From an uncultured Eubacteriales bacterium (lineage in GTDB: Bacteria > Bacillota > Clostridia > Oscillospirales > CAG-382): DNA of 64,000 nt. The translations under genes and the position numbers were made by a program. The notes beneath the pieces were generated by a model. It did no database searches. It saw nothing but the letters and a program-made list of their open reading frames with translations, and was not told the origin of the DNA. The stretch spans positions 12,355 to 76,354 of the forward strand of contig CAKSCN010000001.1 in the NCBI GenBank assembly GCA_934444485.1, written 5' to 3'. Shown piece by piece: positions 8,204 through 59,692 of this stretch (position 1 is its first letter; each line of letters begins with the position of its first letter).

Positions 8204-8215
8204 ACCGGCTCACCG

Positions 8216-17766: not shown

Positions 17767-17793
17767 TAAATCCTCTCCGATATTCAATATGAA

Positions 17794-17830
17794 ACCCGAC
17801 CTCCGAGGCTCTCCCTCGGGGGTTTTTTTA
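17794..17830 (+). terminator. rho-independent terminator after the GGGtGRT gene
   Basis: CCTCCGAGG-ctct-CCCTCGGGGG stem followed by TTTTTTT. Confidence 0.75.
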
Positions 17831-17914
17831 ACAAAATGAGCTTGACCGGGCGGAGAAATAAATATATAATGATAACGGACTCTTTAATATTACATACTGT
17901 CGGAGGGCAAAAAC

Positions 17915-31014: not shown

Positions 31015-31047
31015 TCTCCTTTGACCTTGTGACTTCTGTTGTGCCGA

Positions 31048-31074
31048 TACCACATAATTGACATTATGTTGTTT
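31048..31074 (-). promoter_or_regulatory. 27-bp leader element, copy A (upstream of the giant protease-LRR gene)
   Basis: taccacataattgacattatgttgttt is the exact reverse complement of 31246..31272. It lies 33-39 nt upstream of the start codon and contains the internal palindrome ACATAAT-GTCA-ATTATGT. Confidence 0.6.
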
Positions 31075-31245
31075 TAGCATCCTACATTATACACTGTTTC
31101 TTTTGTAAGTCAACATATATATACAAATTAACCCGATTTTTGTAATAATTAACACAAATATTGGATTTTGAATATAAAATTAAATTCAAATTTTGACTTT
31201 ACCGTTTTAATTTCAACACTTTTGCCGCTTGTTTTTACCTTATTT

Positions 31246-34490: not shown

Positions 34491-34506
34491 TCATTAAAAG
34501 TGCAAA

Positions 34507-36234: not shown

Positions 36235-36238
36235 GGAG

Positions 36239-37774: not shown

Positions 37775-37808
37775 ATTTGACTGATAAAAAATAGAGAGGA
37801 CTTTAAAC

Positions 37809-40865: not shown

Positions 40866-40973
40866 ACGTTTTTTGCGTGTATGCACTGTCCGAAAGAGTA
40901 AGTATCTGAGGGCATGATATATCTGCGTCCCTCCTCATGGGGGACGCTTTTTACAAAGAGCAGAGAGGAATGC

Positions 40974-44987: not shown

Positions 44988-47900
44988 TTACAGTGATTTC
45001 ATCACATCAAGTAAATGCTGATAGCTGTCAACATCATGGTACTTGACATTTTCGGTAGAAATCTCATTAAAGAGTTTTCTTGCACAGGAAATCTTCGCTT
45101 TTTCAATGGGCTTCAAGCTCAAGCTTTCCATCGTACCCTTAGTCTCGGCGATAAAGTAGATGTGTTTTACCGTTCCCTCGTAGAAAGCGATTGCCCAGTC
45201 GGGCGAATAGTTTCCGACCGGAGTAGGAATATGGAATCCTCTCGGCAGTTTTGCATACACGCATACTTCCTCGGCATTATCCAAGTCCTCGGCAAATCGG
45301 CGTTCCACGCTTTTTTCGGCGTAGCCGTCGGTAAATACATAGTCTTGAATATGCTTTGTCGCCTTGAAAGCCTTGTCAATGCTCGTCAAGGTCTTTTCGG
45401 CAGTAAAGATGGTGCTGTCATACTCGCCCTCAATTTGGTCGTAAGAAATGTGTTCAACAATCATCGTTGCCTTTTGCTCGTTGATAAGGCGAATGACTTT
45501 GGCGATAAATTCTTCCGGATTTGCTTTGTACATAGCAAACTTTACCGGCGAGATACCTTTGATAATTTCTACGACTGTCTTTCTTGTCAAAACTGTTCCT
45601 TCCGCAATTTTGCCAACAAGGTCGTATTTGATTTGGCTTACCTCGCCACGCTTCAGCGTAGTCGTGCGTGTCTTTGCTGTCTTAAATGCTTCGCCACGCT
45701 CCAAGGCGTTTGCGTCCATTTCATCTGTCTGCTCGCCTTTAGAAACCGTGTAGGTCAGCTCGGAAACAAACAGCTCGCTGTCAATATGCTTGATGGATTT
45801 TTGGATTAACTCGGCACTATCGAACGAAACGGTATAGGCGTATTTATGGTTGATCTGCTTCCATAGTGCTTGAAATTCTTTCTTGGCAAAATTATCATTA
45901 AGCGGATTTCCCTTGATTGCGGATTCGTGACCATCCGAGAACATATCATCAAGAACGGAATCATCGTATACCGATTGAATCAATGTCTGAATTCCGTCAT
46001 TCATCGGTGCCAGCTCTGCCGGAAGCGGAGCAAGCGTTCCCATTTTCAAATCCATGCGATACTTGTCCGTAACCTTGCGATCCATGTCAACATACCGGTT
46101 GGCAATCAGATAGAACTCGATAGCGTTTGCCGTCTTATCATCAATAACAGTAGGCTTACCGTCCACCTTGACAAACTTGCCTTTGAAGTATTCGCTGGTA
46201 GCAGCCGTCGGTCTGTCATACAGAACCTTCTTGATGTCAGCTTGCAGGTCAGCCACAAAGCCCTTGTAGCTCTCGCTTGCGATAACCGTCAGCTTGTTAA
46301 TATCGTGGATTCTGTCTCCGAGGACTTCCGCATCCATTCTGTTTCCTGCCCGGTTTACGCAGAGACGCAGACCTCGCCCGACCTCCTGCCGCTTCTGTGT
46401 GGAGCTGTCGCTGTGTTTCAGCGTACAAATCTGGAACACATTCGGGTTATCCCAGCCTTCGCGCAAAGCGGAATGTGAGAAGATGAAGCGTGTCGGCTCG
46501 TCTAAGGAAAGCAGACGCTCCTTGTTCTTCAAAATCAGGTCGTATGCGGAAATATCATCCGAAAACTCGGAACCTCTTTTGAGTGCGGAGTTGATGCTGT
46601 GTCCGGTCTTTTTATCAATGCTGAAATAGCCTTTGTGAGTGTCGGCGACTTCAATGCTGCGGAGATATTTCTGATACGGCGTATCGAACAGAGTCAGATA
46701 CTCGTTAAGAATGTTGTTGTATTCTTCTTCAAAGATACGCCCGTACTCACCGAGCAGCTCGTTTCCGTCCTCATCATATTGGCGGTACTTTGCAACCTCG
46801 TCAATGAAAAACAGGGAAAGCGTTTTGATTCCCATATCAAAGAGTTTTTCTTCTTTCTCAAAGTGAGACTGTATGGTTTCTCTGATTTGGATTCGCCGCA
46901 TATCCTGCTCTACCACATCACCGATAACCTCTCCTTGGCGAATAACCATGCCATTCGTTAAAGTCACCGTGCCGTGAATCGGCTCAATGTCGGAAATGGT
47001 ATAGCCGTTTTTGTATTGCTCCATTTCGCCGGACTTGTAATAGAGGTCGTCGCCGACGGCAAACTGAAACATTTTCCGTTTATGCCCGCTTTGCTGTGCC
47101 ACTTCGATTTCAAGCTTTGCCATAGGCGGCTTGTTCGGAGAAAGCACTATGTTTTCGAGATAGAGATACTGACTCGTGCCGGTAAGGTTCTTTACCTCAA
47201 AGCCCTTGACCTCAATCTTCTTGACGAGTTTCTTATTAAACGCATCCAAAGCGTCAAGTACATAGACAAGGTTGTGCTGCTTGGCGTGCGTGGCAGAGTA
47301 GTTCAAGCTGAACAGCGGATTGAAGTTCTGCAGTGCTTTCTGCGTGACCTCACCGCCCATTTTCTGCGGTTCATCCAAAATGATAATCGGTCTGTTCGCC
47401 TTGATAACATCAATCGGACGGCGGGAACCGAATTCATCACGTTTGGAATAAATTATACGGGCTTCCTTGCTCTTGCCGTCCTCTTTCAAGGAAGAAGCGA
47501 ACGCCTGCGTATTGATAATCATGACATTGATACCGGAGCTTGACGAGAAGTTATCCAGCTCGTTTAAGTTGGAGCTGTTGTAGATGAAGAACCGAGTCTT
47601 CTTGCCGTACTGCTCCATAAAGTGGTCTGTTGTAATCTGGAAAGTCTTATTGACACCCTCACGGATAGCAATAGAGGGAACGACCACAATAAACTTGCTC
47701 CATCCGTAAAGCTTGTTCAGCTCAAACATGGTCTTGATGTAAACATAGGTTTTGCCCGTACCGGTCTCCATCTCTATATCGAGAGAACAGCGTCCGACGT
47801 TTCCGATGAGCTTGTCCGAAACTTTGATGTTGTTCTCGTTCTGAATAGCACGGATGTTATCAAGCAACTGCTCTTTTGTCAGCTCAATCTCTTCATTCTT

Positions 47901-48086
47901 GTAGCCGTTGCTCAACAGATCGTCTTCATTATCCGTCATATCAAAACTACTCTGTTTATTTGCCTGCGGCTTGCCTAAATCCGGGGTATAGAAAACCTTG
48001 TCGTGGTGAGGCTGTCCGCTGAATACACGAGCGACCGCTTCAACTGCTTCGGTTTGATACTGCTGTATCTTAAAGTTAAATTTCAT
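44988..48086 (-). CDS. res: Type III restriction-modification system Res subunit (DEAD/DEAH-like helicase-nuclease)
   Basis: 1,032 aa. N-terminus MKFNFKIQQYQTEAVEAV, Walker A METGTGKTYVY, motif II IILDEPQKM, helicase C block SHSALREGWDNPNVFQICTL. The C-terminal endonuclease-like region is typical of Type III Res. Confidence 0.85.
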   Translation of the reverse strand: MKFNFKIQQYQTEAVEAVARVFSGQPHHDKVFYTPDLGKPQANKQSSFDMTDNEDDLLSNGYKNEEIELTKEQLLDNIRAIQNENNIKVSDKLIGNVGRCSLDIEMETGTGKTYVYIKTMFELNKLYGWSKFIVVVPSIAIREGVNKTFQITTDHFMEQYGKKTRFFIYNSSNLNELDNFSSSSGINVMIINTQAFASSLKEDGKSKEARIIYSKRDEFGSRRPIDVIKANRPIIILDEPQKMGGEVTQKALQNFNPLFSLNYSATHAKQHNLVYVLDALDAFNKKLVKKIEVKGFEVKNLTGTSQYLYLENIVLSPNKPPMAKLEIEVAQQSGHKRKMFQFAVGDDLYYKSGEMEQYKNGYTISDIEPIHGTVTLTNGMVIRQGEVIGDVVEQDMRRIQIRETIQSHFEKEEKLFDMGIKTLSLFFIDEVAKYRQYDEDGNELLGEYGRIFEEEYNNILNEYLTLFDTPYQKYLRSIEVADTHKGYFSIDKKTGHSINSALKRGSEFSDDISAYDLILKNKERLLSLDEPTRFIFSHSALREGWDNPNVFQICTLKHSDSSTQKRQEVGRGLRLCVNRAGNRMDAEVLGDRIHDINKLTVIASESYKGFVADLQADIKKVLYDRPTAATSEYFKGKFVKVDGKPTVIDDKTANAIEFYLIANRYVDMDRKVTDKYRMDLKMGTLAPLPAELAPMNDGIQTLIQSVYDDSVLDDMFSDGHESAIKGNPLNDNFAKKEFQALWKQINHKYAYTVSFDSAELIQKSIKHIDSELFVSELTYTVSKGEQTDEMDANALERGEAFKTAKTRTTTLKRGEVSQIKYDLVGKIAEGTVLTRKTVVEIIKGISPVKFAMYKANPEEFIAKVIRLINEQKATMIVEHISYDQIEGEYDSTIFTAEKTLTSIDKAFKATKHIQDYVFTDGYAEKSVERRFAEDLDNAEEVCVYAKLPRGFHIPTPVGNYSPDWAIAFYEGTVKHIYFIAETKGTMESLSLKPIEKAKISCARKLFNEISTENVKYHDVDSYQHLLDVMKSL

Positions 48087-48744
48087 AGTCAGACACCTTT
48101 ATTTCAAGTTTACTTGTAATAAACTCAATAGTCTTATTACCATGCGACGCTGAATCAAGATTAAATATTTCTTGAATTGCATGAATATTGGCATCGTGTT
48201 CATCAAAGAAATATGCCAAATCTCTAACAGCCTTCAGAGCATTTTCTGCAGTATTTATATCCAAGTCTAATTCTATATATTTTGTTATATCAAAATCAGA
48301 ATTAAGAATTGCTTTAGCATCTGTGCCTCGACTTTTGGGATGAACGCATTTGTTACGATTTTCAACCAAAGCAATTAAGCCTGAGTAGTATGGCTTGCTT
48401 TTATTTATTTCAACTTTCAATAATTCTTTGGATATGTGTTCAAATTTACATATCGTCGGACGCTTTTCTAATTTCCCATAAAAATTTTCATCCCCCAAGC
48501 ATGCGGCTGCATAATCATTTAAAAACGCTTCAATGCACATAGCGGAAAATACAACAGCAGTTATGCTTAATTTATAAATGCTTCTGTATTTTGTAAGCAA
48601 ATCGTTTATGTCTTCGGTAGAGGTAGTCATTTTGTCTAATCTCTCTGCACAGTAGTAAGCATTCACAGCCATCTCACAATACATCGCAGATAAACAATTA
48701 ATTCTTATCTGAGAATATATTGGATAAATACCTTGTTTTTCCAT
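48076..48744 (-). CDS. uncharacterised protein with a HEPN-like RNxxxH motif, inserted between mod and res
   Basis: 222 aa counted from ATG 48744, which lies 1 nt after the mod stop (TGATATG). Its 3-prime end overlaps the res start by 11 nt. It looks predicted helical and carries LVENRNKCVHPKS (Rx4H, at 48357..48340). The codon usage is visibly AT-rich. Confidence 0.6.
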   Translation of the reverse strand: MEKQGIYPIYSQIRINCLSAMYCEMAVNAYYCAERLDKMTTSTEDINDLLTKYRSIYKLSITAVVFSAMCIEAFLNDYAAACLGDENFYGKLEKRPTICKFEHISKELLKVEINKSKPYYSGLIALVENRNKCVHPKSRGTDAKAILNSDFDITKYIELDLDINTAENALKAVRDLAYFFDEHDANIHAIQEIFNLDSASHGNKTIEFITSKLEIKVSDYEI

Positions 48745-48745
48745 A

Positions 48746-50731
48746 TCACAGCACCTTCCTAACTGTTGACGGACTAATCGAAGCGAAAATCTGGTCAAAG
48801 TTCGTCAGCACAGAATCGCTTGCCATACCGCTGTCACGGAACACGGCATAATAAGGCTGTTCCTTGGCAATAGCCGTAACGACCTCATCGGAGATGTTGT
48901 TATCGAAGCAGGCATACAGGAAACCGTCCGCCACATTGAACACCTTGCATCCGCCGATAGTGGTCTCCTCAATTTTGGAGGAAAGAAGTATGCCGAGGTC
49001 GAGCATGACCTGGAAAAGCAGATCTTCGGGAGTCCTGTCTTCCTTTATGTTGTCAGTCAGCTGATCGAACATACTGATTTCATAATCGTCAGGATTGTAA
49101 TACACATCTCTCATGTTGGAGGTATCACACTTCAAAACACGGAAACCGACATCTAATGCAGAATTCTTAATGCATAATTCATAATTATCGCATTCCGTCA
49201 TCTTACACTTTTCATTATGCATTATGCATTGTGAATTATGAATTATTTGCGCCCCGGCACGGCGGATGCGCTCCTTGCCGATTTCGCATATATCACGATA
49301 ACCGTTTTTGAACGCTTCACTCTTTTCATCGGTCTTTTCCGGAAGCTGAACCATAATGAACTTGCGGTGTCCGCCATCCTCAGCATTCAGTTGCATAACA
49401 GCGTGGGCAGTGGTTGCAGAGCCGGAGAAGAAGTCGAGCACAATGGAGTTTTCACTAGATGCTATACTGCAAAACAATTTTATAAGTTTTGAAGGCTTAG
49501 GAAAGTCAAAAACACCTATTCCCAATAAATCTTGTAACTCTCTTGTCCCTTTTATTGAAATATACTCCTTATCTATCAATACAGTTTTGGGCATTTCAGT
49601 TAATTTTCGCATTTTTTGATAAATTCGTATAATTCCATCAGAGCCCTTTCTTGCAATTAAATCGGACAACTGCCTTGAAGCTTTTTCGTTTTTTCCCCAT
49701 CTCCAGACGCTGTCAAACCCGTTTACAGAAATAGGAAATACCTCTTTATAATTCATCTTTTTTTCAAGATATACATTACAAAATCCGTTTTCATCCTCAG
49801 ATAACAAATCAACATAAAATGGATATCTTAGATTAGGACGATTAGTAGAGTTAAAAGCTCGTGCATTTTGATTTCTCAAATCTTGAAGATTGAATCCTCC
49901 TTTTTCGTCTTGAAATTGAAATTTCTTTCCTTCTATTTCCATTTCATTTAACGATACTATTTCAATATTTTTTGCATAAATTACAACTTGCTCATGTGTT
50001 TTTGCAAATCCTCCATATCTTCTTCCTTCTGTTTTAACTATTATTGTCGTTAATGCTATAAAATTTATTTCACCAAATATTTCATCACAAAGTTTTCTTA
50101 AATTATCAACTTCATTATCATCAATACTTATAAAAATAACACCATCATCAGACAGCAAGTCCTTTGCCAGCTTCAATCTCGGATAAATCATATTAAGCCA
50201 ATCGGTATGGAAACGACCGTTGCTTTCGGTGTTCTGCACCATACGGTTGCCGTCCTCATCGTATTGTCCGCTGTTTGCAAGATACTCATCCGTACTCTGA
50301 GCAAAGTCATCCTCATACACAAAATCATTTCCCGTATTGTACGGAGGATCTATGTAAATCATCTTGATTTTGCCGAGATAGGTTTCCTGCAATAGCTTCA
50401 GCACTTCAAGATTGTCGCCCTCAATATAGAGGTTTTCGGTGGTATCAAAGTCCACGCTTTCCTCACGGCAGGGACGGAGCGTTTTGGAAATGGGAGCGTT
50501 CGCCAGCAGGACGGACTTCCTCTTGTCCGGCCAGGTGAACTGATAGCGTTCCTCTTTTCCGTCAACAACCTTTGTGCCTATTTCCTGCATCAGCACATCC
50601 TTGTCAATGGCACGAACCACTTCGCCGTTCTCGTCAATCGTCTCCGTAACGGCGTTCGGGAACATCTCCGCTAACTTCTTGAAATTCTCATCGGCTTTGT
50701 TCGCCGTTTGCATTCTTAATTTATCACTCAT
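48746..50731 (-). CDS. mod: Type III RM Mod subunit, N6-adenine/N4-cytosine beta-class DNA methyltransferase
   Basis: 661 aa. Motif IV IYIDPPYNTGNDF comes before motif I VLDFFSGSATTAHAV (beta-class order). The central presumed target-recognition region (about 49450..50150) is AT-rich. Confidence 0.85.
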   Translation of the reverse strand: MSDKLRMQTANKADENFKKLAEMFPNAVTETIDENGEVVRAIDKDVLMQEIGTKVVDGKEERYQFTWPDKRKSVLLANAPISKTLRPCREESVDFDTTENLYIEGDNLEVLKLLQETYLGKIKMIYIDPPYNTGNDFVYEDDFAQSTDEYLANSGQYDEDGNRMVQNTESNGRFHTDWLNMIYPRLKLAKDLLSDDGVIFISIDDNEVDNLRKLCDEIFGEINFIALTTIIVKTEGRRYGGFAKTHEQVVIYAKNIEIVSLNEMEIEGKKFQFQDEKGGFNLQDLRNQNARAFNSTNRPNLRYPFYVDLLSEDENGFCNVYLEKKMNYKEVFPISVNGFDSVWRWGKNEKASRQLSDLIARKGSDGIIRIYQKMRKLTEMPKTVLIDKEYISIKGTRELQDLLGIGVFDFPKPSKLIKLFCSIASSENSIVLDFFSGSATTAHAVMQLNAEDGGHRKFIMVQLPEKTDEKSEAFKNGYRDICEIGKERIRRAGAQIIHNSQCIMHNEKCKMTECDNYELCIKNSALDVGFRVLKCDTSNMRDVYYNPDDYEISMFDQLTDNIKEDRTPEDLLFQVMLDLGILLSSKIEETTIGGCKVFNVADGFLYACFDNNISDEVVTAIAKEQPYYAVFRDSGMASDSVLTNFDQIFASISPSTVRKVL

Positions 50732-51501
50732 TTGGGAGTCCCCTCTTTCTTGTTTATATTATTTATACATTGCTGTAGGATATAATTTTTGTCCTCTGTA
50801 TGCCATTTTAAATATGACGCATTCAAATTTTTTATAAGGTTATCAATGAGATTACTACACAGTTTTATTTTTTCTTTTTCTATTTTACTTCGATCATTAT
50901 ACACATAAGAATCTATCTTTAAAGGGAATCGTGCCTCTTCCGCGAGATTTTCCATGCTTAAAGCTTCTGACAAATTAGTGTAGTTTTCTTTTATTGCTTT
51001 TAAGTATTCTTCGCCATTTTCTAAAACGGAAAACCATAATTTTATTTCTTTGTCATCAAATAAACCATTTATATTGTGATTGGAAATTTTTAATTCTTTA
51101 ACATTTGTCGGCGACAAATATTTAATAAGTTCTTTGCTATCTCTTCCCAAACAAACAGTGTTGTAAATGTCGATCTTCGCCATTTTTAAAAATAATTCGG
51201 TCGTATGATGCATTAGGAAAACTGTTGGAAGAAGTGAGAAATAATTCAGTTGTTTCGATAATACTTCTTGCTGTTTTGATGTTGCCACCAGATATGCGGT
51301 AAAATATTGCTGAAATGCATTGCTTATCAATTGCCTATCTTGCATCAGTTCTCCGAAGATCAGCTTTAAAATTTCTTCAGTTGAGATACTATCCTTTTTC
51401 TGCTCAGTCAAGCAAGTTTCAACCTTATTCCAATATTCGGCACTAGAACGACTCTCGTTACGTGCTTTTTCAAATATTTCTTTTAGTGTCACTTCACCCA
51501 T
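50728..51501 (-). CDS. uncharacterised 257-aa protein between the DUF4391 gene and mod
   Basis: ORF track. AAAGGA ribosome-binding site. Its stop overlaps the mod start in ATGA. It looks predicted helical and very AT-rich. I recognise no motif. Confidence 0.55.
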   Translation of the reverse strand: MGEVTLKEIFEKARNESRSSAEYWNKVETCLTEQKKDSISTEEILKLIFGELMQDRQLISNAFQQYFTAYLVATSKQQEVLSKQLNYFSLLPTVFLMHHTTELFLKMAKIDIYNTVCLGRDSKELIKYLSPTNVKELKISNHNINGLFDDKEIKLWFSVLENGEEYLKAIKENYTNLSEALSMENLAEEARFPLKIDSYVYNDRSKIEKEKIKLCSNLIDNLIKNLNASYLKWHTEDKNYILQQCINNINKKEGTPK

Positions 51502-51509
51502 GAAGATTA

Positions 51510-52100
51510 TTATCCTTTCAGCATTTTTATTCTTTGTACAATTTCAAACTTCTTCCTCGGCTGTTTCTCATTCCTTGCCTGCTTTTCGAGCTTTTCAATT
51601 TCCTTTAGGAGCTTTTCCCTGCGTTCATCAACGGCAATCTGCTCATTCAAAGAATTGCCCTGTTCCAGCTCCACGCCGCCGACAGTCGAGACTATATTCT
51701 CCCACGCCTTATCAAGGTTCAAACCTTTGAGTTCTATGTGTTGTTCCGCTGTCGGCTTCCACTCCGTTTGCAATATCTTTAAACGATATACGGCAAGTTT
51801 GCTTTCGCTTCCGCACTCCAGAAAAAAGAGGATGTTTTGCGGTATCAGTTTTGACAATGTTTCTATTGTTCTTTCGGAGAAATCTTTTCTTTTCAGAGAT
51901 ACCAGCAAAACAAAAAAGCTCTTAACTTCATCTCCGGCAGAAATATTTACATTATTCGGTGTTACCTCATTTACAATTGTAATTCTCGATATATCTGCGT
52001 CAAATCTATCTTTTTCTGCCGTTTTCATTTGAAACTTCGCATATATAGCTTTCTTAGGAAGCTGTTTACTCACTTCCGTAGTTTTGGGAAGTCCGAGCAT
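51510..52100 (-). CDS. DUF4391-like protein
   Basis: 196 aa. The N-terminal LGLPKTTEVSKQLPKKAIYAKF...ISRITIVNEVTPNNVNI resembles DUF4391 proteins, which commonly sit between SNF2-like helicases and methyltransferases. GGTGAGGTG ribosome-binding site lies inside the helicase 3-prime end. Confidence 0.55.
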   Translation of the reverse strand: MLGLPKTTEVSKQLPKKAIYAKFQMKTAEKDRFDADISRITIVNEVTPNNVNISAGDEVKSFFVLLVSLKRKDFSERTIETLSKLIPQNILFFLECGSESKLAVYRLKILQTEWKPTAEQHIELKGLNLDKAWENIVSTVGGVELEQGNSLNEQIAVDERREKLLKEIEKLEKQARNEKQPRKKFEIVQRIKMLKG

Positions 52101-52109
52101 TTAATCACC

Positions 52110-55100
52110 TCACCGCACGACTAAGAAACAAATCAGTTCAAAGTCGTCAAGTCCTTTAATTTCATTTGATAAAAAGCTTACCGTATCGCCGCTCAAAAAG
52201 CTGTCAATATCATTTTCTTCCTTGACATCAATTATAGAGTTTATGGATTCACTCAGCAGCTCGGAAATCTCACTCATATTGCGCCCGTCGTCTGTCTCAT
52301 CGTTAAAACGGTGATAGAGTGCTTCGATTGGCTTGTCCTTGCCGCGGCAAAGCAGATGCATTGTATCGAGAAGCTTTTTCGGCTGCAAGTAATCACAGAC
52401 TACATCGCCGTCGTTACCGATATAGACCATATAAAACGGATGAAGCCGATTCTTGTTATCAATATTGATGCTTTGCTCTCGGTTCTTCAGTACAAAGACA
52501 ACGCCGGGAGGGCAATCCTTTGATGCAGGAGCAACGGCATGAAGCCCCATAGGGGTATGCTCCAATTCCGGATGATGCTTGATATATTCCAGCAAATCAA
52601 GGCGGAACTCGTTCAATCCCAAATCCATGATGGAGATGCCGGAGGACATATCTTCAATATCTACAACTTCCTCCTGCAAGCGCTTGAGCTGTGTTTTACG
52701 GTATTCAAGGTCGTGCTTTTCTTCATCGGAGAGAATGTTGTCGTCGCCCGTAGCGGTCATATCGACAATCTTCATTCTCGTTTCAACTTTCGATTTCAGA
52801 TTGATATATTCGTCAAGAGTAATATCGGGCCAGAAATTGACAAGCTGAATGACCTTGTTCCTGCTGCCGATACGGTCAACTCGTCCAAATCGCTGAATGA
52901 TGCGAACGGGGTTCCAATGAATATCGTAATTGATAAGGTAGTCGCAGTCCTGCAGGTTCTGACCTTCGGAGATACAGTCTGTTGCAATCAAAATATCAAT
53001 ATCGACTTTCGGGATGCTGTCAAACATATCTCTGTCTTTTGACTTCGGAGAAAAACAAGTCAGAACGGTGTTCATATCTGCTCGTTTCAGCTTTGCGGTC
53101 GTGCGTCCTTCAACAGAACCGGTAACAACCGCTGTGTTCAAGCCGTATTTTTTCAGCATGAACGCAGAGACATTATCATAAAGATACATAGCCGTATCAG
53201 CAAAAGCGGTAAAGATAATTACTTTCTTGTTTCCTTCGTTGATAGGATGCTCCACCTTATTTGACAGGTCTTCCAAAAGCTCCTGCAGCTTGCTGTCGTG
53301 TTCCGGCGTGATGTCATCCACCATAATTGTAAGAAGTTCAAGAATTTCCCGGTCCTTCGCAAGCTCTCCACGCCACGAAAGTCTATCCATATCGGCAAGG
53401 TCAATCTGAACTTTCCTGCCGATGCTTGCAAAGTCATCGCTGTTCTGGTCGTCAAGGTCGTATTCATCAACATCGGAAATATCTGTGAGATTGACCGTTG
53501 CTCCGACCGTATTTTCGTAATCATCTATCGACTCAATAGTGGTGTCAATCAGCTCCTTGATTCTGCGAAGCGTCAGATTGAAAGAATAGACGGAGCTTTC
53601 CATACGCTTCATCAAGTTTATCGCCATCAGGCGGCGAATACCCAGCTCACGGCTTGCCTGCGTGAAGCCGACATTAACCTTGTTATCTCCATACAACTCG
53701 GCGTACTTTTCCATTCGGCTCGGCAAAATGTAATGAGACGGACGGTAAATATCCAGGTTCAGCTTTGTAAGCTGTTCAAAAATTTCGTTATAGCTGATAG
53801 CGTCCTTCAAATCGGTCAGATGCGGTGTGTGCGATTTAGGAACCAGCCTTTCCGGGAACTTACCGATAGAGGTCGTATCATAATATTTCTCGATGTGCTT
53901 TCTGGAGCGGGCAATCGTAACGCTGTCCAACACCTCAAAGAAGTCAAAGTCAAGCATACGGAGCAGGTTGTCGGTTGTTCTATCGCAAGGTTCCCATTTG
54001 CTCCATGTATTGAACGCTTTCTGTGCGTTTCGGAAAATATCATCAATGGTATGCGTCGTTTTCAGCTTGCTGTCGAGCAGAGAGGAATCTCCCTCGTAAG
54101 CGAGCTGCAACTGATTTTTCAAATCATTGAAGCGTGTATTGACCGGCGTGGCGGAAAGCATAAGGACCTTTGTCTTTACGCCTTTGCGTATGACCTGTTT
54201 CAGTAAAGTGGTATAACGATTTTCTTTTTCTCCGTCTTCGGAATCGAGTTTGCCGCCATTGCGGAAGTTGTGTGATTCATCAATCACAACAAGGTCGTAT
54301 GTATCCCAACGCAGGCGGGACAAATCCGTTCCGTTGGACATACCGTGTGTCCGCCCAATATCGGTATGATAAAGCACCTTGTAGTTCAACCTGTCTTCTG
54401 CAAGGGGATTGTTGATATAATTATCCCGATATGTATTCCAGTTGTTCGACAGCTTCTTCGGGCAAAGAACCAAAACGCTTTTATTTCTTGATTCGTAGTA
54501 CTTAATGACCGCCAAGGCAGTAAAGGTTTTACCGAGACCGACAGAATCGGCTAAAATGCAACCGTTATACTTTTCAAGCTTATTGATAATGGCAAGAGCC
54601 GCATCACGCTGAAAGTTAAACAACATATTCCACACTTTGCTGTCCTTAAACCCCGTCGCTTCATTCGGTAAGGTGTCTTCGGATACATCTTCAAGGAACT
54701 CATTGAAAATGTTATACAGCGTGATAAAGTAGATAAACTCCGGAGAATTTTCGTTATAGACCGCCGTAATATTCTCAATCACCCGGTCGGTTACATCCTG
54801 GAAGTTCTGCTTGTCGTTCCAAAGCTGCTCAAACAGGTCAATATAGCTCTTGCTCATCGGATATGACAGCCTCTGCGTAAAATTGTACGCATAATTACCA
54901 CGCTCACAGCCGAGGTCAACGGTTGTGAATTCATTAAAAGGCATATAGGTATACTGGTCATTATCCGAAAGTACATTCAAAAATCCCGGCACAACTTGAC
55001 TTGTGGTATTGGACTTAAAAATCGCTTTCTGCTTTATCCATTCCGCACACTCTTTTGCAATAGCCCTCTGGGTAAGTTCGTTGCGGAGCCGAATTTCAAA

Positions 55101-55766
55101 CTCGCTTCCGTAAAGGTTCTTTTCACGAGTTATTCGAGGAATATAAAACTCTCTTTTTGATTTTTCCGCTTTGTCGGTGGTAAAGGTGGGAGATGTAAAG
55201 ATAAACCGCAAGTCCTCAATACCCGAAAGGCTCTTTTTCAATTCTTCATAGGCATAGATAGAGAAGCAGGCTGCGGCAATTCTCAGCTTGCTTTTCTTTG
55301 TTACGGTTTCTTCCAAATCATCACGCAGCCGAAGGTGAATGTTATCAATCATTTTCGGCATCCCAAACACGTTTTGCGTGTTCTGCATTTGCGGCATAGT
55401 TATCTGAGCAGCCGCCTCAGAAGCAAGAGGTTGTGCGTCCTCATTTGCCGCCTGCTCACCCGGATAATGGATGAGAGAATCGTCAACATCAAAAAAATTC
55501 AGTTTCCCTTTTACGGGAAATGCTTTGATTTTACGCACATTCGTCAGATGCCACTCATAAGCATCCTCGTTTTGGTTGTAGACAGTACTATCAAGATTGG
55601 CAACGCAAAGAGCATAACCGGAAAGCATTCCCGGCACTTTCGGGTTTGCACTGCTGCAAATCAAAAGTTCGCCTCTGTGCTTGGTATCCCACGACCGATA
55701 TTCAATGTTTTTCGACCCTCGCAATATTTGTGTTGCGTAAGGGTTTTTAATTGATATTGCTTTCAT
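52110..55766 (-). CDS. ASCH-domain / SNF2-family helicase fusion protein
   Basis: Start at ATG 55766 (GGAGAGG ribosome-binding site). N-terminal ASCH-like [39 protein letters not shown]. SNF2 motifs [24 protein letters not shown], and [41 protein letters not shown]. Confidence 0.8.
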   Translation of the reverse strand: [1218 protein letters not shown]

Positions 55767-56061
55767 TCTTCTACCTCTCCTCAAAAAGTTGATACTTTCG
55801 CCACTTCACATTATACCGTACCGAGTGTCCGATATAAAGTACTCCGAGTGCAGCAGCTTTTCTTTTGTATAAAAATTCCATTCAATGTACTGCAATACTG
55901 CATTTTGTACCTGTGCTAACCGTTTTCCGATACCGCATTTAGTTCATCACAGTACTAAAACCAAGAAGATTATACCATAATTCTGAAATAATATCAAGTG
56001 TATGTTATAACATTTTAAAGATTGTTGTTCTCACAGGATGCGAAATTTGCGGACAGTACAT

Positions 56062-56100
56062 AAAGCAAAAGCACACCACGTTTATTGCAGACTGGTGTGC
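56062..56100 (-). terminator. rho-independent terminator after the HD-domain gene
   Basis: On the minus strand, the stem GCACACC...GGTGTGC is followed by TTTTGCTTT. Confidence 0.5.
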
Positions 56101-56194
56101 GTACACGGACAAGTTTTCGTCCGGTGAAAACAAAACACGTTTATAAAAAATCTTTTGTATCTTAACCGTGTATGCGGTTTTCCTATCGAAATGT

Positions 56195-57307
56195 TTAAGT
56201 ATTAGACGGCGGCTGTTGGCGAGTAAACAAAAATATACCGTTATTTTCATCAATTACATCAACGTCGAGCCAACTCGGCAAGCCTTTTATGCAATTTATG
56301 TAGTTATCGCAGTTATGCTTTGTTTTATACCGTATATCTTCAAAGTCCGTTCGGCTTATATAAGAGCATGCATCACCGTTTTTCAAATTTTGAATTGAAA
56401 TTCTGAAACCGCTATCGTCAGATTCTTCGTATTTAATCAACTCCAAACTGCCTATACCGAATTTTTTTACCGGCTCTATTGTGTCGGCAAGCGCCAATAC
56501 GAAGGCAATGCAATTATCTACCCCGATCTTCTTCTCATTATAACTCGTCTTGCCCTCTTCAGACAAATATGAATTCAATGTGTCTATCCAAACATTGTGG
56601 GAAATTATCGCATCCGCCGCTTTTGCATAATAACGGTAGTGCCTGTTTGAAAAACGCAGACCGTTATAATAAAACGATTCTCTTGAAATATCACTACCTA
56701 ATCCATATGCCTTTTCCCATGCGGTTTCAAAGTTTTTTCTAAGCCTATCATAAAGAAGTAATCCCCCGGCGATTCCGTGATCTATTACCCCTCTATTCGC
56801 CCCGGAACACCCAGCGCGATGAGAAAGATATATATTGATATGTGTCCTTGAATAGGTTCTAAATTCATTTTCTCTTAAGTACTTTATATTGAGAATTTTT
56901 TGAATTGCCTCCAAACCGTCATCTCGAAGCATTTTCAGATAGTTATCGTTTTCATTTTCCTCAAAAACATAACCTATATCGTGATACAGAGAAGCTAAAA
57001 ACCACAGGTATTTAAAATTGCCCATGTTTTTAAAATCAATGTGAAAACTTTCGGCGATTAAGATACCCAATAAATAGGTTGACACAATATGCGACGCACG
57101 ATCTTTTATTATATTGATGTCGCCATATATATCCAAATCGTCGAATAAATTCTCTTTTTCTCCGCACTTAAAATACTTTTTTATAAATTCATACGCTTTT
57201 TCGTTATCTGTCAACGCATTGTAATTCAACGTTGACGGACAATCATAATATGACCACCTGTCCCTATTTGAAATTAAGGCTTTATACTCGTCTTTCAGTG
57301 TTTGCAT
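56195..57307 (-). CDS. HD-domain (metal-dependent phosphohydrolase-like) protein with an uncharacterised C-terminal domain
   Basis: 370 aa. Residues are spaced as in the HD superfamily: RASHIVSTY, ASLYHDIGYVFE, VIDHGIAGG, LALADTIEP. It has its own ribosome-binding site and terminator. Confidence 0.6.
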   Translation of the reverse strand: MQTLKDEYKALISNRDRWSYYDCPSTLNYNALTDNEKAYEFIKKYFKCGEKENLFDDLDIYGDINIIKDRASHIVSTYLLGILIAESFHIDFKNMGNFKYLWFLASLYHDIGYVFEENENDNYLKMLRDDGLEAIQKILNIKYLRENEFRTYSRTHINIYLSHRAGCSGANRGVIDHGIAGGLLLYDRLRKNFETAWEKAYGLGSDISRESFYYNGLRFSNRHYRYYAKAADAIISHNVWIDTLNSYLSEEGKTSYNEKKIGVDNCIAFVLALADTIEPVKKFGIGSLELIKYEESDDSGFRISIQNLKNGDACSYISRTDFEDIRYKTKHNCDNYINCIKGLPSWLDVDVIDENNGIFLFTRQQPPSNT

Positions 57308-57420
57308 TTCTCATATATCCTTCCGTCTAAAGTAAATTATTCAGCAATCTGAATTTCGGTCAGCGTTCTCGGAATTCAAGGCATTACGGCATATAGCAGG
57401 AGATTTTGTTCTGCGAACGC

Positions 57421-57762
57421 TTATAAAACCGTTGCGGATTTGAGCAATTTCTGAGCATCCTCCATTATCGTGTGTTTGACGCAATTATCCGATGTTATTG
57501 TTATTTCTATATTCGATTTTTGTGCGTATTCATTTCCGTATATGTCACAGTATTCTATACAAAAATCGTATTGTTTGTACGGCAAGTTTTTTATGTCAAA
57601 AAAGCATCCGATATAGAGTTTATTTCCAACCGGGATTGAAACCGGGACTGTTTTTGCACACAAATCGCCGTCGTGGATTTTTAAGGAAATCGTACACCGA
57701 AGCGCACAGCCGTTTCCCGCATTTGTTATTTCAAGCGGAATAAAGTAGGCGTCCGGTATCAT
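57421..57762 (-). CDS. hypothetical 113-aa protein, downstream partner of the DUF4238-like gene
   Basis: ORF track. It lies 14 nt after the upstream stop. It is Cys-rich, looks predicted beta-rich, and has a weak ribosome-binding site. Confidence 0.45.
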   Translation of the reverse strand: MIPDAYFIPLEITNAGNGCALRCTISLKIHDGDLCAKTVPVSIPVGNKLYIGCFFDIKNLPYKQYDFCIEYCDIYGNEYAQKSNIEITITSDNCVKHTIMEDAQKLLKSATVL

Positions 57763-57776
57763 TTTTTGCCGTTTAC

Positions 57777-58610
57777 TTATACGGCACTTTCATTTTCCGG
57801 AAGCAAGCCATCTCGGTGCATTTCCGCAACTATTTCCGCCAATTGCTCTTTTGATGTTGCTGTCACATACCGTCTGTTGGCAGCTTCGCTAATGAACAAC
57901 CGGCAATTCAGATTTTTTACCGTTTCTTCGGTTTCAAATTTCGCACAGTATAATCCGTCCTCTCTAAGGAAACGCTCTTTTTCTTCAAGCGCAATAATCA
58001 CAGCCAACTTCGGCGTTACAGGCGCAATTATAGTATTCTTACACAGGCAAAAGCCGATATTCGGCAAAACAAACGGTATATTCGTTGTGTTGATACCCAA
58101 TGACACACATGGATTATCACCCACTATTTTATTTTTCACTGATGTGATTCCGAAAATAGCACACATATCGTGAAGAAAGGTCTTTGCAGCAGAAGAGGTA
58201 TTTGCAGCAGGAGTGGTTTCTTGAATAAAAATTGAAGAATATAAATCCTCACCGACGTCTTTTTGGCACTCGGTTCCCCTTGCTAAAAGAGCGTTGAAAT
58301 AGCGAATTACCGTTTCTTTGTCATGACAATCAAGCGTAACCGTATTTCCGTCAAGGATTCCTTTTGCTTTGTTTAAAAATTTTGAAAACGGTCTCTCGAC
58401 ATTTTCATTGAGAAATCTTTCCGTGTTTTCCGAAAAGAAGTCTTTTTCTGTGTTCAGGTGCTTTGATTGTCCCGGTTTAATCCTTTCGACGTTTGCAAAG
58501 CCGCACTTCGGCTTATCGGTAAAGTCGTAGAAATCCAACAGACCTTTTTCATTTTCAAACTGTTTTAGTATAAATCTCGGAATTTGAATGTGAGAGTTTA
58601 TTGATGTCAT
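57777..58610 (-). CDS. DUF4238-like protein
   Basis: 277 aa. GGAGGT ribosome-binding site. The N-terminal HIQIPRFILKQF resembles the DUF4238 HxVPxFYLKxF signature, and the later VGDNPCV resembles the family DNP motif. Confidence 0.5.
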   Translation of the reverse strand: MTSINSHIQIPRFILKQFENEKGLLDFYDFTDKPKCGFANVERIKPGQSKHLNTEKDFFSENTERFLNENVERPFSKFLNKAKGILDGNTVTLDCHDKETVIRYFNALLARGTECQKDVGEDLYSSIFIQETTPAANTSSAAKTFLHDMCAIFGITSVKNKIVGDNPCVSLGINTTNIPFVLPNIGFCLCKNTIIAPVTPKLAVIIALEEKERFLREDGLYCAKFETEETVKNLNCRLFISEAANRRYVTATSKEQLAEIVAEMHRDGLLPENESAV

Positions 58611-58854
58611 TTTTACCTCCGATATTTTAGATATTTTTCAAGCAAAACACGCCTTTAAGATGAGACTTAATAAATCAAAAAATGCGTCTGACACACGAAA
58701 ACCGCTACCAAACGAGAGGGTGTGTTTTTACTATGTGCGTCGTGATACTGTTTTCCCGAATCTCCACAGCACAGATGCACCGCAGAGAAATTAAAGTTAG
58801 TCATGGTATCGCTTTATTTTAGTGTTGTTTAACGCTCTCGATTTTAACTCACCG

Positions 58855-59247
58855 TCACAGCTTGGTATCGAGTGAAAGATATGAGCGTATCGACCTCGCT
58901 GCTTCTTTGTTTGTCTTTATAACATCGTTATCGCCGTCACTCGCCTGCATATTGTTTGATAATAGCAAAAGTGAGCGACATACTTCTGTTAAAACTTTTT
59001 TGGACGGAATCAGAAACCTTGCCAAAAATTTACGTTCTTGCGCAAATGCCTGGATTTTGCTTGCCATTTTTCGCAGCTCTTTCGAGGCTTCGTTATGCCA
59101 ATCAGCGTTTTCGACGTTATCATAAGGATTACTGTATGCACTCTCATATTGAAAGAGACAATAAGATATATCGGAACGCAGGTCATTATATTTTTTCAAA
59201 GGATCAGTGCACAAAATTCCGACAAACCAACCCACAAACTCACCCAT
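58855..59247 (-). CDS. hypothetical 130-aa protein
   Basis: ORF track. AGAGGT ribosome-binding site. It looks predicted helical, with no recognised motif. Confidence 0.45.
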   Translation of the reverse strand: MGEFVGWFVGILCTDPLKKYNDLRSDISYCLFQYESAYSNPYDNVENADWHNEASKELRKMASKIQAFAQERKFLARFLIPSKKVLTEVCRSLLLLSNNMQASDGDNDVIKTNKEAARSIRSYLSLDTKL

Positions 59248-59692
59248 AATAAATACCTCTATTCTGTAAATCGTTTTTCTAAAAGCATTCTCATGTCAAT
59301 CATCTAATCTTCGGCAGATAAATCATTGTACTTTCGGCTTGCTGAACAGTTTTCAGCTTCATCACGCCGCACGAACGTAAAAGCCCTCAAAGCGGCAAGC
59401 ACAAAAGTAAATGTGCAAAATTGCAACAAATCTTGCGTTTATTTGTCGACAGATTGACACATGGTTTTAATAATATATAAATATTATAATCTTTCATCTG
59501 CGTTTTGTCAAGCATTATTTGTTAAATGTCCCATAAATCGGACATATCTGCTTCGTGTAAGCGTGAGGTCGGCTCGGCGCAGTTTATCGATTGAAATTTA
59601 CGTCGCCGCCCCACAAAACTTTTTGAATAAAACTCCGATCTTTACAGAAAATAATGTTGTAAAAGAAAAGAAAAAGGAGTTTTATATAAATT

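What the first reader, a model, noticed from the sequence alone, without database searches (positions are those of the whole stretch)
56195..59247. Cluster of stand-alone candidate defence genes next to the RM operon: HD-domain protein, a DUF4238-like protein with a 113-aa partner, and a 130-aa orphan
Seen in sequence: there are three separate minus-strand transcription units, each with its own ribosome-binding site, in markedly AT-rich DNA between the RM operon and spoVT.
- The 370-aa protein carries an H...HD...H...D arrangement.
- The 277-aa protein starts HIQIPRFILKQF and has a DNP motif, both DUF4238-like. A Cys-rich 113-aa ORF follows 14 nt later.

Established knowledge: defence genes cluster in islands, and HD nucleases or phosphohydrolases are recurrent effectors.

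Inference: these may be uncharacterised one- or two-gene immune modules.
Basis: partly seen in the sequence, partly recalled or inferred. Interest (0 to 1): 0.6.

Follow-up and report, generated by a model that had tools for sequence, protein, structure and literature searches.

The report
Swappable defence-gene slot beside restriction operon

Summary
The four minus-strand ORFs exist exactly as described, in DNA of 36-41% GC against 51-54% in the core genes.

- **277-aa protein.** It passes Pfam's DUF4238 threshold, but only over its N-terminal ~110 residues. It is very distant from the one DUF4238 protein shown to block phage T7. It moves as a 909-bp single-gene cassette. Three of its four closest relatives sit in or beside type I RM operons; the fourth is on a contig too short to tell.
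- **113-aa "partner".** This is not a partner. It is the 3' remnant of a 274-aa membrane-protein gene that is intact in sister strains. The break lies about 8-10 nt upstream of its ATG.
- **370-aa protein.** It belongs to an unannotated family of at least 113 clusters with invariant H73, H109-D110, H177, H237 and D275. The AlphaFold2 model is confident, but nothing in the PDB matches it significantly. Its distribution is patchy. It is embedded in type I RM operons, sits next to a type III-like methylase, and in two genomes lies inside the BREX methyltransferase PglX. Sister strains have lost two thirds of the gene.
- **130-aa ORF.** It is lineage-restricted, appears to be under purifying selection, and its function is unknown.

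Verdict: this is a real defence-island cargo slot. The single-gene reading is supported and the two-gene reading is refuted. The HD-like family is a reasonable new defence candidate, but it is untested.

The parts
56195..57307 (-). Gene for a 370-aa divergent HD-superfamily protein. It has an intact H73 / H109-D110 / H177 / H237 / D275 metal-site signature. It is a candidate stand-alone defence effector.
   Evidence: - ORF.
- At least 113 homologous clusters, none with a Pfam domain or a name.
- Invariant residues in 84 sequences.
- Pfam HD is below threshold here (18.2 against 22 bits), but 38 of 84 family members hit it at E <= 0.01.
- AlphaFold2 pLDDT 91.4.
- No significant PDB or BFVD fold match.
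57421..57762 (-). 113-aa ORF. It is the 3' remnant (codons 162-274) of a 274-aa two-TM protein gene that is intact in sister strains. It is not a partner of DUF4238.
   Evidence: - Its 90% cluster contains P0274, a 274-aa protein whose C-terminus is 98% identical.
- It is the only cluster found among 5.8 billion proteins.
- DNA homology to L065 starts at window 57770, about 8 nt upstream of the ATG.
- No Shine-Dalgarno sequence.
57763..58670 (-). 909-bp single-gene cassette carrying the 277-aa DUF4238-family gene (57777-58610) with its GGAGG ribosome-binding site. It ends in a short hairpin just after the stop codon.
   Evidence: - The same 909 bp, at 94% identity, sits at a different chromosomal site in L068-L071 with neither neighbouring ORF.
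- PF14022 E 8.6e-11.
- 248 related representative clusters.
- dN/dS 0.38.
- Hairpin at 57767-57786.
58178..58213 (-). Tandem 18-nt duplication inside the DUF4238 gene. It encodes the strain-variable, low-confidence loop that makes this protein 277 aa rather than about 250 aa.
   Evidence: - Repeat family D3.
- Insertion relative to homologues.
- Loop differs between strain variants P0270-P0273.
- pLDDT 65-70 in residue blocks 121-140.
58855..59247 (-). 130-aa lineage-restricted ORF of unknown function. It is probably a real gene.
   Evidence: - ORF with AGAGG upstream.
- Against variant L072 there are 7 synonymous and 7 non-synonymous differences, dN/dS 0.25, binomial p 0.015.
- No family hits.
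- No homologue in any fetched locus or in phages.
59483..59511 (-). Perfect sigma-70-type promoter-like site (TTGACA-17-TATAAT) pointing at the 130-aa gene and the genes beyond it.
   Evidence: It lies inside the strain-specific segment defined.
57771..59613 (-). Strain-specific segment holding the promoter-like site, the 130-aa gene and the DUF4238 cassette. Sister strains carry Metallophos + 400-aa + the 5' part of the 274-aa gene here instead.
   Evidence: blastn of the window against L065 and L066, with the junction sequences.
56577..57373 (-). 797 bp (upstream region plus the 5' two thirds of the HD-like gene) that sister strains L065 and L066 have lost. The loss leaves a 123-aa remnant there.
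   Evidence: The deletion junction lies between near-identical TTGAAT(T)C repeats.
44988..55784 (-). Adjacent known defence operon: ASCH-SNF2 helicase, DUF4391, 257-aa unknown, type III Mod, 240-aa unknown, type III Res.
   Evidence: Pfam and PADLOC.

Best explanation
**What the locus is.** The interval between spoVT and an SNF2/type III restriction operon is a cargo slot of a defence island. Its contents are exchanged between strains of one gut Clostridia species, by homologous recombination in the conserved flanks plus illegitimate joins at short microhomologies.

In this strain the slot holds four items.
1. **A stand-alone DUF4238-family gene.** It is a distant member of the family whose E. 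coli P2-prophage representative blocks phage T7 as a single gene. I take it to be a self-contained anti-phage protein. The conserved polar set (H7, E64, E72, R111, N174, N235) would be its active or ligand site. The biochemical mechanism is unknown.
2. **An unannotated HD-superfamily protein.** Its six conserved ligands (H, HD, H, H, D) are the pattern of two-metal HD phosphodiesterases and nucleases, not of one-metal dNTPases. I take it to be a stand-alone metal-dependent nuclease or phosphodiesterase effector that accompanies, and in some genomes is physically built into, DNA-recognising restriction or BREX machines.
3. **A 130-aa orphan gene** of unknown role.
4. **A dead 3' fragment** of a neighbouring membrane-protein gene.

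**Shown:** gene content, family membership at Pfam level, conserved residues, cassette boundaries, strain-to-strain replacement, and embedding in RM/BREX loci.

**Inferred:** anti-phage function of either protein, two-metal chemistry, and nuclease against nucleotide substrate.
For: **Slot turnover**
- L065 and L066 share 96-99% identical flanks but carry Metallophos + 400 aa + an intact 274-aa gene + a truncated HD gene.
- The Metallophos protein hits the PADLOC candidate PDC-S10 at E 3e-12.

**DUF4238**
- Pfam PF14022 scores above its threshold.
- The published single-gene anti-T7 activity belongs to a family member (PMC9122126).
- The closest homologues lie between hsdM and hsdS or next to hsdM (L001-L005, L062).
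- The 909-bp cassette occurs alone at a second site.
- dN/dS is 0.38, p 0.0035 against neutrality.
- 'Guilt by embedding' is a published predictor of defence genes (bioRxiv 10.1101/2024.01.29.577857).

**HD-like family**
- The metal ligands are invariant.
- 38 of 84 members hit Pfam HD and no other family recurs.
- The weak fold hits are all HD-superfamily enzymes: PDE2/4/5/9, Cas3 and PgpH.
- The taxonomic spread is patchy: Clostridia, Bacteroidales, Spirochaetia and Burkholderiales.
- 73 immediate neighbours fall into 90 Pfam families, none seen more than 5 times. They include type I HsdM and HsdR, Fic/SoFic, BrxL, and PDC-S02, -S04 and -S22.
- With a limited seed set, 7 of 44 loci are directly embedded in or adjacent to RM or BREX.
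- In L047 the module is an in-frame insertion in PglX, matching PDB 8c45 at E 2.5e-236 in two stretches. In L037 a truncated PglX ends at the same point.
Against: - No phage-challenge data exist for either protein.
- The window's DUF4238 protein matches only the N-terminal 40% of the Pfam model. It is barely detectable against the validated protein: hhalign E 0.007 with probability 5%, and BLASTP not significant.
- Neither it nor any of 99 subfamily members hits a PADLOC model.
- The HD-like protein is below Pfam's HD threshold and has no significant structural neighbour. Its chemistry is therefore inferred from motifs alone.
- Most HD-family loci (about 37 of 44) are not visibly next to RM or BREX. 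I did not run a matched random-locus control.
- The slot contains decaying fragments, so its intact genes could also be on their way out.
Confidence: 0.6

Rival explanations
1. The HD-like protein is a housekeeping nucleotide-metabolism or signalling enzyme, such as a (p)ppGpp hydrolase, HD-GYP, dNTPase or 5'-nucleotidase, that merely happens to lie here.
For: - It has an HD-type metal site.
- The weak fold hits include cyclic-nucleotide phosphodiesterases and PgpH.
Against: - No NCBIfam hit at all, and no Pfam HD-subfamily hit.
- Sister strains of the same species have deleted two thirds of the gene.
- The neighbourhood is different in nearly every genome.
- The phyletic distribution is patchy.
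Confidence: 0.05
2. The DUF4238 gene and the 113-aa ORF form a two-gene immune module.
For: - The gap is 14 nt, they share a strand, and the ORF is intact and Cys-rich.
Against: - The 113-aa ORF equals residues 162-274 of a 274-aa two-TM protein in L065-L067. Homology begins about 8 nt before its ATG, which is an internal Met.
- It has no ribosome-binding site.
- DUF4238 copies in L068-L071, L001-L005 and L062 lack it.
- No other homologue exists among 5.8 billion proteins.
Confidence: 0.03
3. The HD-like and/or DUF4238 proteins are accessory subunits of the neighbouring restriction machinery rather than independent systems. They might act, for example, as an extra nuclease or a regulator for the SNF2/type III or type I enzymes.
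For: - Both families are repeatedly found inside RM operons, with overlapping or abutting reading frames.
- The HD module is fused in frame into PglX in L047.
Against: - Both also occur with no RM or BREX gene nearby. DUF4238 sits between surface-protein genes in L068, and most HD loci are of this kind.
- The host systems differ in type: type I, type III-like, BREX and SNF2.
- L065 keeps the SNF2/type III operon while losing the HD gene.
- The validated DUF4238 protein works alone.
Confidence: 0.15
4. The slot is a graveyard. The intact-looking genes are recently acquired, non-functional passengers, or selfish addiction or toxin genes, with no role in phage defence.
For: - Two gene remnants lie in the same slot in different strains.
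- No experimental data exist.
- The 113-aa remnant shows no sign of constraint: 1 synonymous and 3 non-synonymous differences.
Against: - Purifying selection acts on DUF4238 (dN/dS 0.38 and 0.21) and on the 130-aa ORF (0.25).
- All catalytic-type residues of the HD family are intact here.
- Both families are large and widespread.
Confidence: 0.15

Closest known systems
Rst_DUF4238, the single-gene anti-phage system from the E. coli P2-like prophage hotspot (Rousset et al. 2022, PMC9122126)
   Same: - Both match Pfam PF14022.
- Both share the N-terminal signature: H-x-x-[PQ]-x-x-L-K-x-F, and a helix ending in L..R.P.
- Both are single-gene, stand-alone cargo of a variable hotspot.
   Different: - Only the N-terminal ~110 residues are recognisably related. 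Pairwise BLASTP is not significant.
- The validated protein's SDNP strand motif has no conserved counterpart here.
- This subfamily is about 250 aa, lives in gut Firmicutes and is typically embedded in type I RM operons, not prophages. There are no hits in phage or viral collections.
- Anti-phage activity is untested.
Genes embedded in type I RM, BREX and other defence operons (PrrC, TgvAB and the candidates of Payne et al. 2024)
   Same: Both the DUF4238 subfamily and the HD-like family occupy the classic embedded positions: hsdM-X-hsdS, hsdS-X-hsdR, and within BREX.
   Different: - Neither protein is related to PrrC, GmrSD/TgvAB or any PADLOC 2.0.0 model.
- In the window itself they sit beside the RM operon, not inside it.
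HD-domain effectors of immune systems (Cas3 HD nuclease, the Cas10 HD domain, dGTPase/SAMHD1-type dNTPases) and two-metal HD phosphodiesterases (PgpH, HD-GYP, class I PDEs)
   Same: - The H..HD..H..H..D ligand pattern, in an all-helical core of about 280 residues.
- The weak Foldseek hits are exactly these enzymes.
   Different: - No significant sequence or fold match to any of them: best Foldseek E 0.17, TM below 0.2; PADLOC Cas3 E 0.03.
- There is no helicase or other fused domain.
- It has extra invariant residues of its own (K51, E116, Y160, N238, E278-P279-x-K281) and a small C-terminal alpha/beta domain.

Membership tests
DUF4238 (Pfam PF14022) | Whole-protein score above Pfam's gathering threshold | tested here: met
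   42.2 bits against a cut-off of 27, E 8.6e-11. Precomputed PF14022 hits also exist for P0001, P0003, P0118 and P0270.
DUF4238 (Pfam PF14022) | Match over the full length of the 281-position model, including the C-terminal half | tested here: not met
   Only model positions 5-111 are matched. hhalign to the validated protein aligns columns 5-115 only.
Rst_DUF4238 defence system | Recognisable homology to the experimentally validated protein (pFR101, E. coli TA007) | tested here: inconclusive
   Subfamily profile against the validated sequence gives E 0.0074 but probability 5%. BLASTP is not significant. No PADLOC model is hit by any of the 99 subfamily members; I could not verify whether PADLOC 2.0.0 holds a DUF4238 model.
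Rst_DUF4238 defence system | Functions and moves as a single gene | tested here: met
   The 909-bp cassette (gene plus ribosome-binding site) is the only DNA shared between two chromosomal sites. Homologues sit alone inside RM operons. Function itself was not tested.
Rst_DUF4238 defence system | Protects against phage when expressed | not testable with these tools
   This needs a plaque assay.
HD superfamily (Pfam PF01966 clan) | Conserved H...HD...D metal-binding residues | tested here: met
   H73, H109-D110 and D275, plus H177 and H237, are invariant in 84 sequences.
HD superfamily (Pfam PF01966 clan) | Score above Pfam's gathering threshold for HD | tested here: not met
   18.2 bits against 22. 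38 of 84 family members reach E <= 0.01, best 2.6e-5.
HD superfamily (Pfam PF01966 clan) | Fold superimposable on solved HD-domain structures | tested here: inconclusive
   The top Foldseek hits are HD-superfamily enzymes (PDE2A, PDE4/5/9, Cas3, PgpH), but E is at least 0.17 and TM at most 0.2.
Housekeeping HD enzymes ((p)ppGpp hydrolase, HD-GYP, dGTPase) | Match to a curated family model and a conserved genomic context | tested here: not met
   No NCBIfam hit. No Pfam subfamily hit in 84 members. Neighbours are variable. The gene is deleted in sister strains.
Cas3-type HD nuclease | HD domain joined to or encoded next to a Cas3 helicase and cas genes | tested here: not met
   PADLOC Cas3 gives only E 0.03. 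There is no helicase domain in the protein, and no cas families appear among the neighbours.
Two-gene module (DUF4238 + 113-aa ORF) | The partner co-occurs with homologues of the first gene and is a complete gene | tested here: not met
   The ORF is a truncated copy of the 274-aa P0274. It is absent next to every other DUF4238 copy.
Defence-island variable hotspot | Different cargo between conserved flanks in close relatives, next to known defence systems | tested here: met
   Window compared with L065/L066. The flanking type III RM/SNF2 operon is identified. The alternative cargo includes a PDC-S10-like Metallophos protein.

The most novel reading that the evidence does not exclude
The 370-aa protein founds a new family of two-metal HD effectors that are specialised to ride inside DNA-recognising immune machines: type I RM, type III RM and BREX. 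In some genomes the module is inserted in frame into the BREX methyltransferase PglX. That would give BREX, whose effector step is still unknown, a built-in hydrolase. If so, the family would be both a new stand-alone defence gene and a natural experiment on how BREX and RM complexes can be armed with an extra nuclease or phosphodiesterase.
Probability: 0.25. Interest if true: 0.65.

Novelty: new variant of a known kind. Interest (0 to 1): 0.42.

Why it matters
- **Defence-gene discovery.** If the HD-like family is a defence effector, it adds an unannotated family with no significant match to any solved structure to the list of RM/BREX-embedded immune genes. It is absent from Pfam, NCBIfam and PADLOC 2.0.0. 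Its in-frame insertion into PglX gives a concrete handle on how accessory hydrolases couple to BREX.
- **DUF4238.** The DUF4238 result extends a barely studied single-gene system from E. coli prophages to gut Firmicutes. It also shows that the gene travels as a roughly 0.9-kb cassette.
- **Annotation practice.** A tightly spaced "partner" ORF turned out to be a recombination scar. Two-gene modules should be checked against sister strains before being proposed.

Tried and rejected
- **Small ORFs after HD homologues.** In L012, L013 and L015 a 49-52-aa ORF follows the HD homologue. The two sequences are unrelated to each other and absent from the window, so they are not a conserved partner.
- **Recurrent partner of the HD family.** All-against-all clustering of neighbours found only BspA-type LRR_5 proteins, in 7 loci. 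That cluster mixes cytoplasmic Bacteroidales forms with spirochaete lipoproteins. There is no universal partner.
- **274-aa and 130-aa proteins as conserved partners.** Neither has a homologue in any other HD or DUF4238 locus.
- **DUF4238 locus scans.**
  - Two alignments were too diverse to give search patterns.
  - A 4-sequence alignment found nothing in JGI metagenome contigs or IMG/VR.
- **tblastn against phages and plasmids.**
  - HD and DUF4238 against plasmids: nothing.
  - The 130-aa protein against phages: nothing.
  - DUF4238 and HD against phages: nothing significant.
- **PDB searches.**
  - Sequence and profile searches for both proteins found nothing.
  - Foldseek of both confident models found nothing significant.
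- **RNA and repeats.** Rfam found no RNA family in the interval. There are no flanking att-like or IS-like repeats and no tRNA in the window.
- **HEPN guess.** The C-terminal extension of P0082-85 (EMRNRIIHSF, an R-x4-H pattern) was seen by eye only.
- **Wasted look-up.** One search failed because I trimmed the wrong end of the minus-strand coordinates. It was repeated correctly.


Full report
**1. What is in the sequence**

- 370 aa at 56195-57307
- 113 aa at 57421-57762
- 277 aa at 57777-58610
- 130 aa at 58855-59247

*Flanks.* Downstream lies an operon of ASCH-SNF2 helicase, DUF4391, a 257-aa unknown, type III Mod, a 240-aa unknown and type III Res. PADLOC gives MTase_III E 5e-217 and REase_III E 5e-291. 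Upstream, on the other strand, lie spoVT, clpX, clpP and tig.

*Composition.* GC is 0.36-0.41 across the four ORFs against 0.51-0.54 in the core genes.

*Left boundary.* To the left of the RM operon the genes encode dockerin/cohesin surface proteins, not defence proteins. The island therefore spans about 44988-59600. There is no tRNA, Rfam RNA or flanking repeat.

*Ribosome-binding sites and transcription.* Good Shine-Dalgarno sequences precede the 277-, 370- and 130-aa genes but not the 113-aa ORF. The only strong promoter-like site is a perfect TTGACA-17-TATAAT at 59511-59483, upstream of the 130-aa gene. The scan found no terminator-like site in the minus-strand intergenic regions. 'Three separate transcription units' is therefore unproven.

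**2. The 113-aa 'partner' is a gene fragment**

A search of 5.8 billion proteins found only the ORF itself. Its 90% cluster, however, also contains a 274-aa protein, P0274. That protein has two N-terminal transmembrane helices, and its last 113 residues are 98% identical to the ORF.

P0274 is encoded on contigs L065-L067. L065 and L066 come from the same species, with flanks 96-99% identical to the window. They carry, in the same slot: spoVT | Metallophos (241 aa) | 400 aa | 274 aa | a 123-aa C-terminal fragment of the HD-like protein | ASCH-SNF2....

blastn and the junction sequences give the following map.

| Window | L065 | Relationship |
|---|---|---|
| 60343-59614 | 1181-1910 | homologous |
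| 59613-57771 (promoter-like site, 130-aa gene, DUF4238) | 1911-4669 | unrelated |
| 57770-57374 | 4670-5066 | homologous again |
| 57373-56577 | absent | missing from L065 |
| 56576-52116 | 5070-9530 | homologous |

- Homology resumes about 8-10 nt upstream of the ORF's ATG, at a shared GGCAA. That ATG is internal Met162 of the 274-aa protein.
- The 797-bp loss in L065 lies between near-identical TTGAAT(T)C repeats.

Each strain type thus keeps a scar of a gene that is intact in the other. The slot is rearranged by recombination, and the '14-nt-spaced partner' is a remnant. No other DUF4238 locus has anything like it.

**3. The 277-aa protein**

*Family membership.* It passes Pfam's DUF4238 threshold (42 bits against 27), but only over model positions 5-111. 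An exhaustive HMMER search finds 248 related representative clusters, mostly about 250 aa and aligned over their full length. In 99 of them F18, E72, R111 and N235 are invariant, and S6, H7, P11, S60, E64, N174 and P197 nearly so.

*Structure.* The AlphaFold2 model is confident (pLDDT 89.9). It has no significant match in the PDB by fold or by sequence.

*Relation to the validated protein.* One DUF4238 protein from an E. coli P2-like prophage hotspot gives strong single-gene resistance to T7 (PMC9122126). I took its sequence from that paper's supplementary file 3. The relation is remote. Profile against sequence gives hhalign E 0.007 with probability 5%, over the N-terminal ~110 columns only. 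BLASTP is not significant.

*Genomic context.*
- P0002 and P0003 (44% identity) lie between hsdM and hsdS, or immediately after hsdM.
- P0119 lies next to a type I RM locus with an integrase.
- P0118 is on a contig too short to show context.
- A 94%-identical copy (P0270; L068-L071) sits at a different site of the same species' chromosome, between surface-protein genes. L068 positions 1-7929 match window 11734-19638 at 96.5%. The only DNA shared with this locus is window 58670-57763, which is 909 bp covering the gene and its ribosome-binding site.

So this is a mobile single-gene cassette.

*Selection.* dN/dS is 0.38 against L068 and 0.21 against L072.

*Variable loop.* A tandem 18-nt duplication at 58178-58213 makes a strain-variable loop.

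*Other collections.* No copies were found in phage, plasmid or viral-contig collections.

**4. The 370-aa protein**

*Family and conserved residues.* At least 113 homologous clusters exist, none with a Pfam domain or a source name. Across 84 of them the invariant residues are K51, H73, H109, D110, E116, Y160, H177, G178, G182, H237, N238, D275, E278, P279 and K281. This is the H..HD..H..H..D pattern. From general knowledge of the HD superfamily, that pattern marks two-metal phosphodiesterases and nucleases (PgpH, HD-GYP, Cas3) rather than the H..HD..D dNTPases. This point is an inference.

*Domain and fold evidence.*
- Pfam HD is below threshold for this protein (18.2 against 22 bits). It is the only family that recurs in the set, at 38 of 84 members.
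- There are no NCBIfam, PHROG or PADLOC hits apart from Cas3 at E 0.03.
- The AlphaFold2 model is confident (pLDDT 91.4, pTM 0.91).
- Foldseek finds nothing significant. The best, non-significant hits are all HD-superfamily enzymes: PDE2A at E 0.17, other PDEs, T. fusca Cas3 and PgpH.
- BFVD gives nothing.

*Distribution.* 45 loci were found among 185,579 species genomes, spread over Clostridia, Lachnospiraceae, Oscillospiraceae, Bacteroidales, Spirochaetia, Burkholderiales and Tenericutes. One locus was found in 2.9 million viral contigs. None was found in plasmids or phages.

*Context.* The 73 immediate neighbours fall into 90 Pfam families, none seen more than five times. They include HsdM, HsdR, ResIII, Fic/SoFic, BrxL, YhcG and KilA-N, and the PADLOC candidates PDC-S02, -S04 and -S22.

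A limited seed set places 7 of 44 loci directly in or next to RM or BREX:

| Locus | Position of the HD-like gene |
|---|---|
| L015 | hsdM-HD-hsdS |
| L020 | hsdS-HD-hsdR |
| L016 | HD-hsdR, reading frames overlapping |
| L038 | next to a type III-like Mod |
| L047 and L037 | inside BREX PglX |
| L050 | a PglX-like gene about 6.4 kb away |

- In L047 a single 1525-aa ORF reads PglX(1-858)-HD(859-1233)-PglX C-terminus. It matches solved PglX/BrxX (8c45, 9ewz) at E about 1e-236 in two stretches.
- In L037 a 53%-identical PglX ends at the same point, and the HD ORF overlaps it by 4 nt.
- Sister strains L065 and L066 have lost two thirds of the gene, so it is dispensable.

This refutes a housekeeping role. 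By the published 'guilt-by-embedding' logic (10.1101/2024.01.29.577857; TgvAB example PMC11411939), it supports a defence role. I did not run a matched random-locus control, so the enrichment is qualitative.

**5. The 130-aa ORF**

It has no informative family hit, no phage hit and no homologue in any fetched locus. A 93.7%-identical variant (L072) differs by 7 synonymous and 7 non-synonymous changes. That gives dN/dS 0.25 and p 0.015 against neutrality. It is probably a real gene. It is not part of the DUF4238 cassette. Its function is unknown.

**6. Most likely working model**

The slot is a recombination-driven cargo site of a defence island. I read DUF4238 as a self-contained anti-phage protein whose biochemistry is unknown. 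I read the HD-like protein as a stand-alone two-metal nuclease or phosphodiesterase effector that can also be plugged into RM or BREX machines.

- *Shown:* gene content, conservation, cassette limits, strain replacement, embedding.
- *Inferred:* anti-phage activity, metal stoichiometry, substrate.

Rivals, all less likely:
- housekeeping enzyme
- true two-gene module
- obligate accessory subunit of the neighbouring RM system
- non-functional passengers

**7. Novelty and score**

- The DUF4238 gene is a distant new member of a known defence family.
- The HD-like family is an unannotated candidate of a known general kind (HD effectors, embedded defence genes). Its PglX insertion is unusual; a search of the held papers turned up no report of it.
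- The two-gene idea is refuted.

Many such embedded candidates exist. Payne et al. list thousands of families, and nothing here has been tested experimentally. Interest is therefore moderate, at 0.42.

Noticed in passing
L047:5325-9902 and L037:5323-9131: An HD-like module homologous to the window's 370-aa protein lies inside the BREX methyltransferase PglX at the same position in two genomes. In L047 it is an in-frame insertion, giving one 1525-aa ORF that matches PDB 8c45 and 9ewz in two stretches. In L037 it is a separate ORF overlapping a truncated PglX by 4 nt.
   Followed up: partly
L065:2072-5019 (same slot as window 57771-59613): Sister strains carry different cargo in the slot: a Metallophos phosphoesterase (PADLOC candidate PDC-S10, E 3e-12), a 400-aa unknown, and an intact 274-aa two-TM protein. 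This may itself be a three-gene candidate defence system.
   Followed up: partly
window 48076-48798 and 50728-51501 (minus strand): Two ORFs (240 aa and 257 aa) with no family hits are embedded inside the SNF2/DUF4391/type III Mod-Res operon. In L065 the 257-aa position instead holds a second DUF4391 gene and a 23S_rRNA_IVP-family gene. The operon's interior therefore also varies between strains.
   Followed up: no
window 52110-55784 (minus strand): This 1224-aa protein joins an N-terminal ASCH domain to an SNF2 helicase. Its best PADLOC hit is 'C3a139 HKD+Snf2' (E 2e-124). A DUF4391 gene follows it, upstream of a type III RM pair. This is a composite system, not a plain type III RM.
   Followed up: no
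window 58178-58213: A tandem 18-nt duplication inside the DUF4238 gene encodes a low-confidence surface loop (..TTPAANTSSAAKT..). The loop differs strongly between strain variants; P0270 has STTKTSSTTKTPSIAKT.
   Followed up: partly
L021:9078-12155, L022:9078-10145, L024:9084-11108, L036:4104-5924: In Bacteroidales, HD-family genes are followed 13-19 nt later by BspA-type LRR_5 proteins. These have no signal peptide, share the N-terminus MAYFDKYGVEFSDD, and have different C-terminal ends. By eye, one end looks like a DEDDh exonuclease and another like a zinc ribbon.
   Followed up: no
P0082, P0084, P0085 (546-aa HD-family members): These carry a C-terminal extension of about 150 aa containing EMRNRIIHSF. 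That is an R-x4-H pattern reminiscent of HEPN RNases. The resemblance was seen by eye only, and a PDB sequence search found nothing.
   Followed up: partly
window 59483-59511 (minus strand): A perfect sigma-70 consensus (TTGACA-17-TATAAT) lies about 235 nt upstream of the 130-aa gene. It is inside the strain-specific segment, in the intergenic region shared with the divergently transcribed spoVT.
   Followed up: no
window 20032-31080 (minus strand) and 31302-44525 (plus strand): There is a 3682-aa ORF and a run of large dockerin, cohesin and Listeria-Bacteroides-repeat surface proteins. One has a phage-tail-lysozyme domain and one an amidase domain. In the sister strain L068 the DUF4238 cassette is inserted next to the homologue of this region.
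   Followed up: no
L064:667-1674 (IMG/VR UViG_3300045988_145231): This is the only viral-contig relative of the HD-like protein (27% identity) found among 2.9 million contigs. Its neighbourhood was not examined.
   Followed up: no
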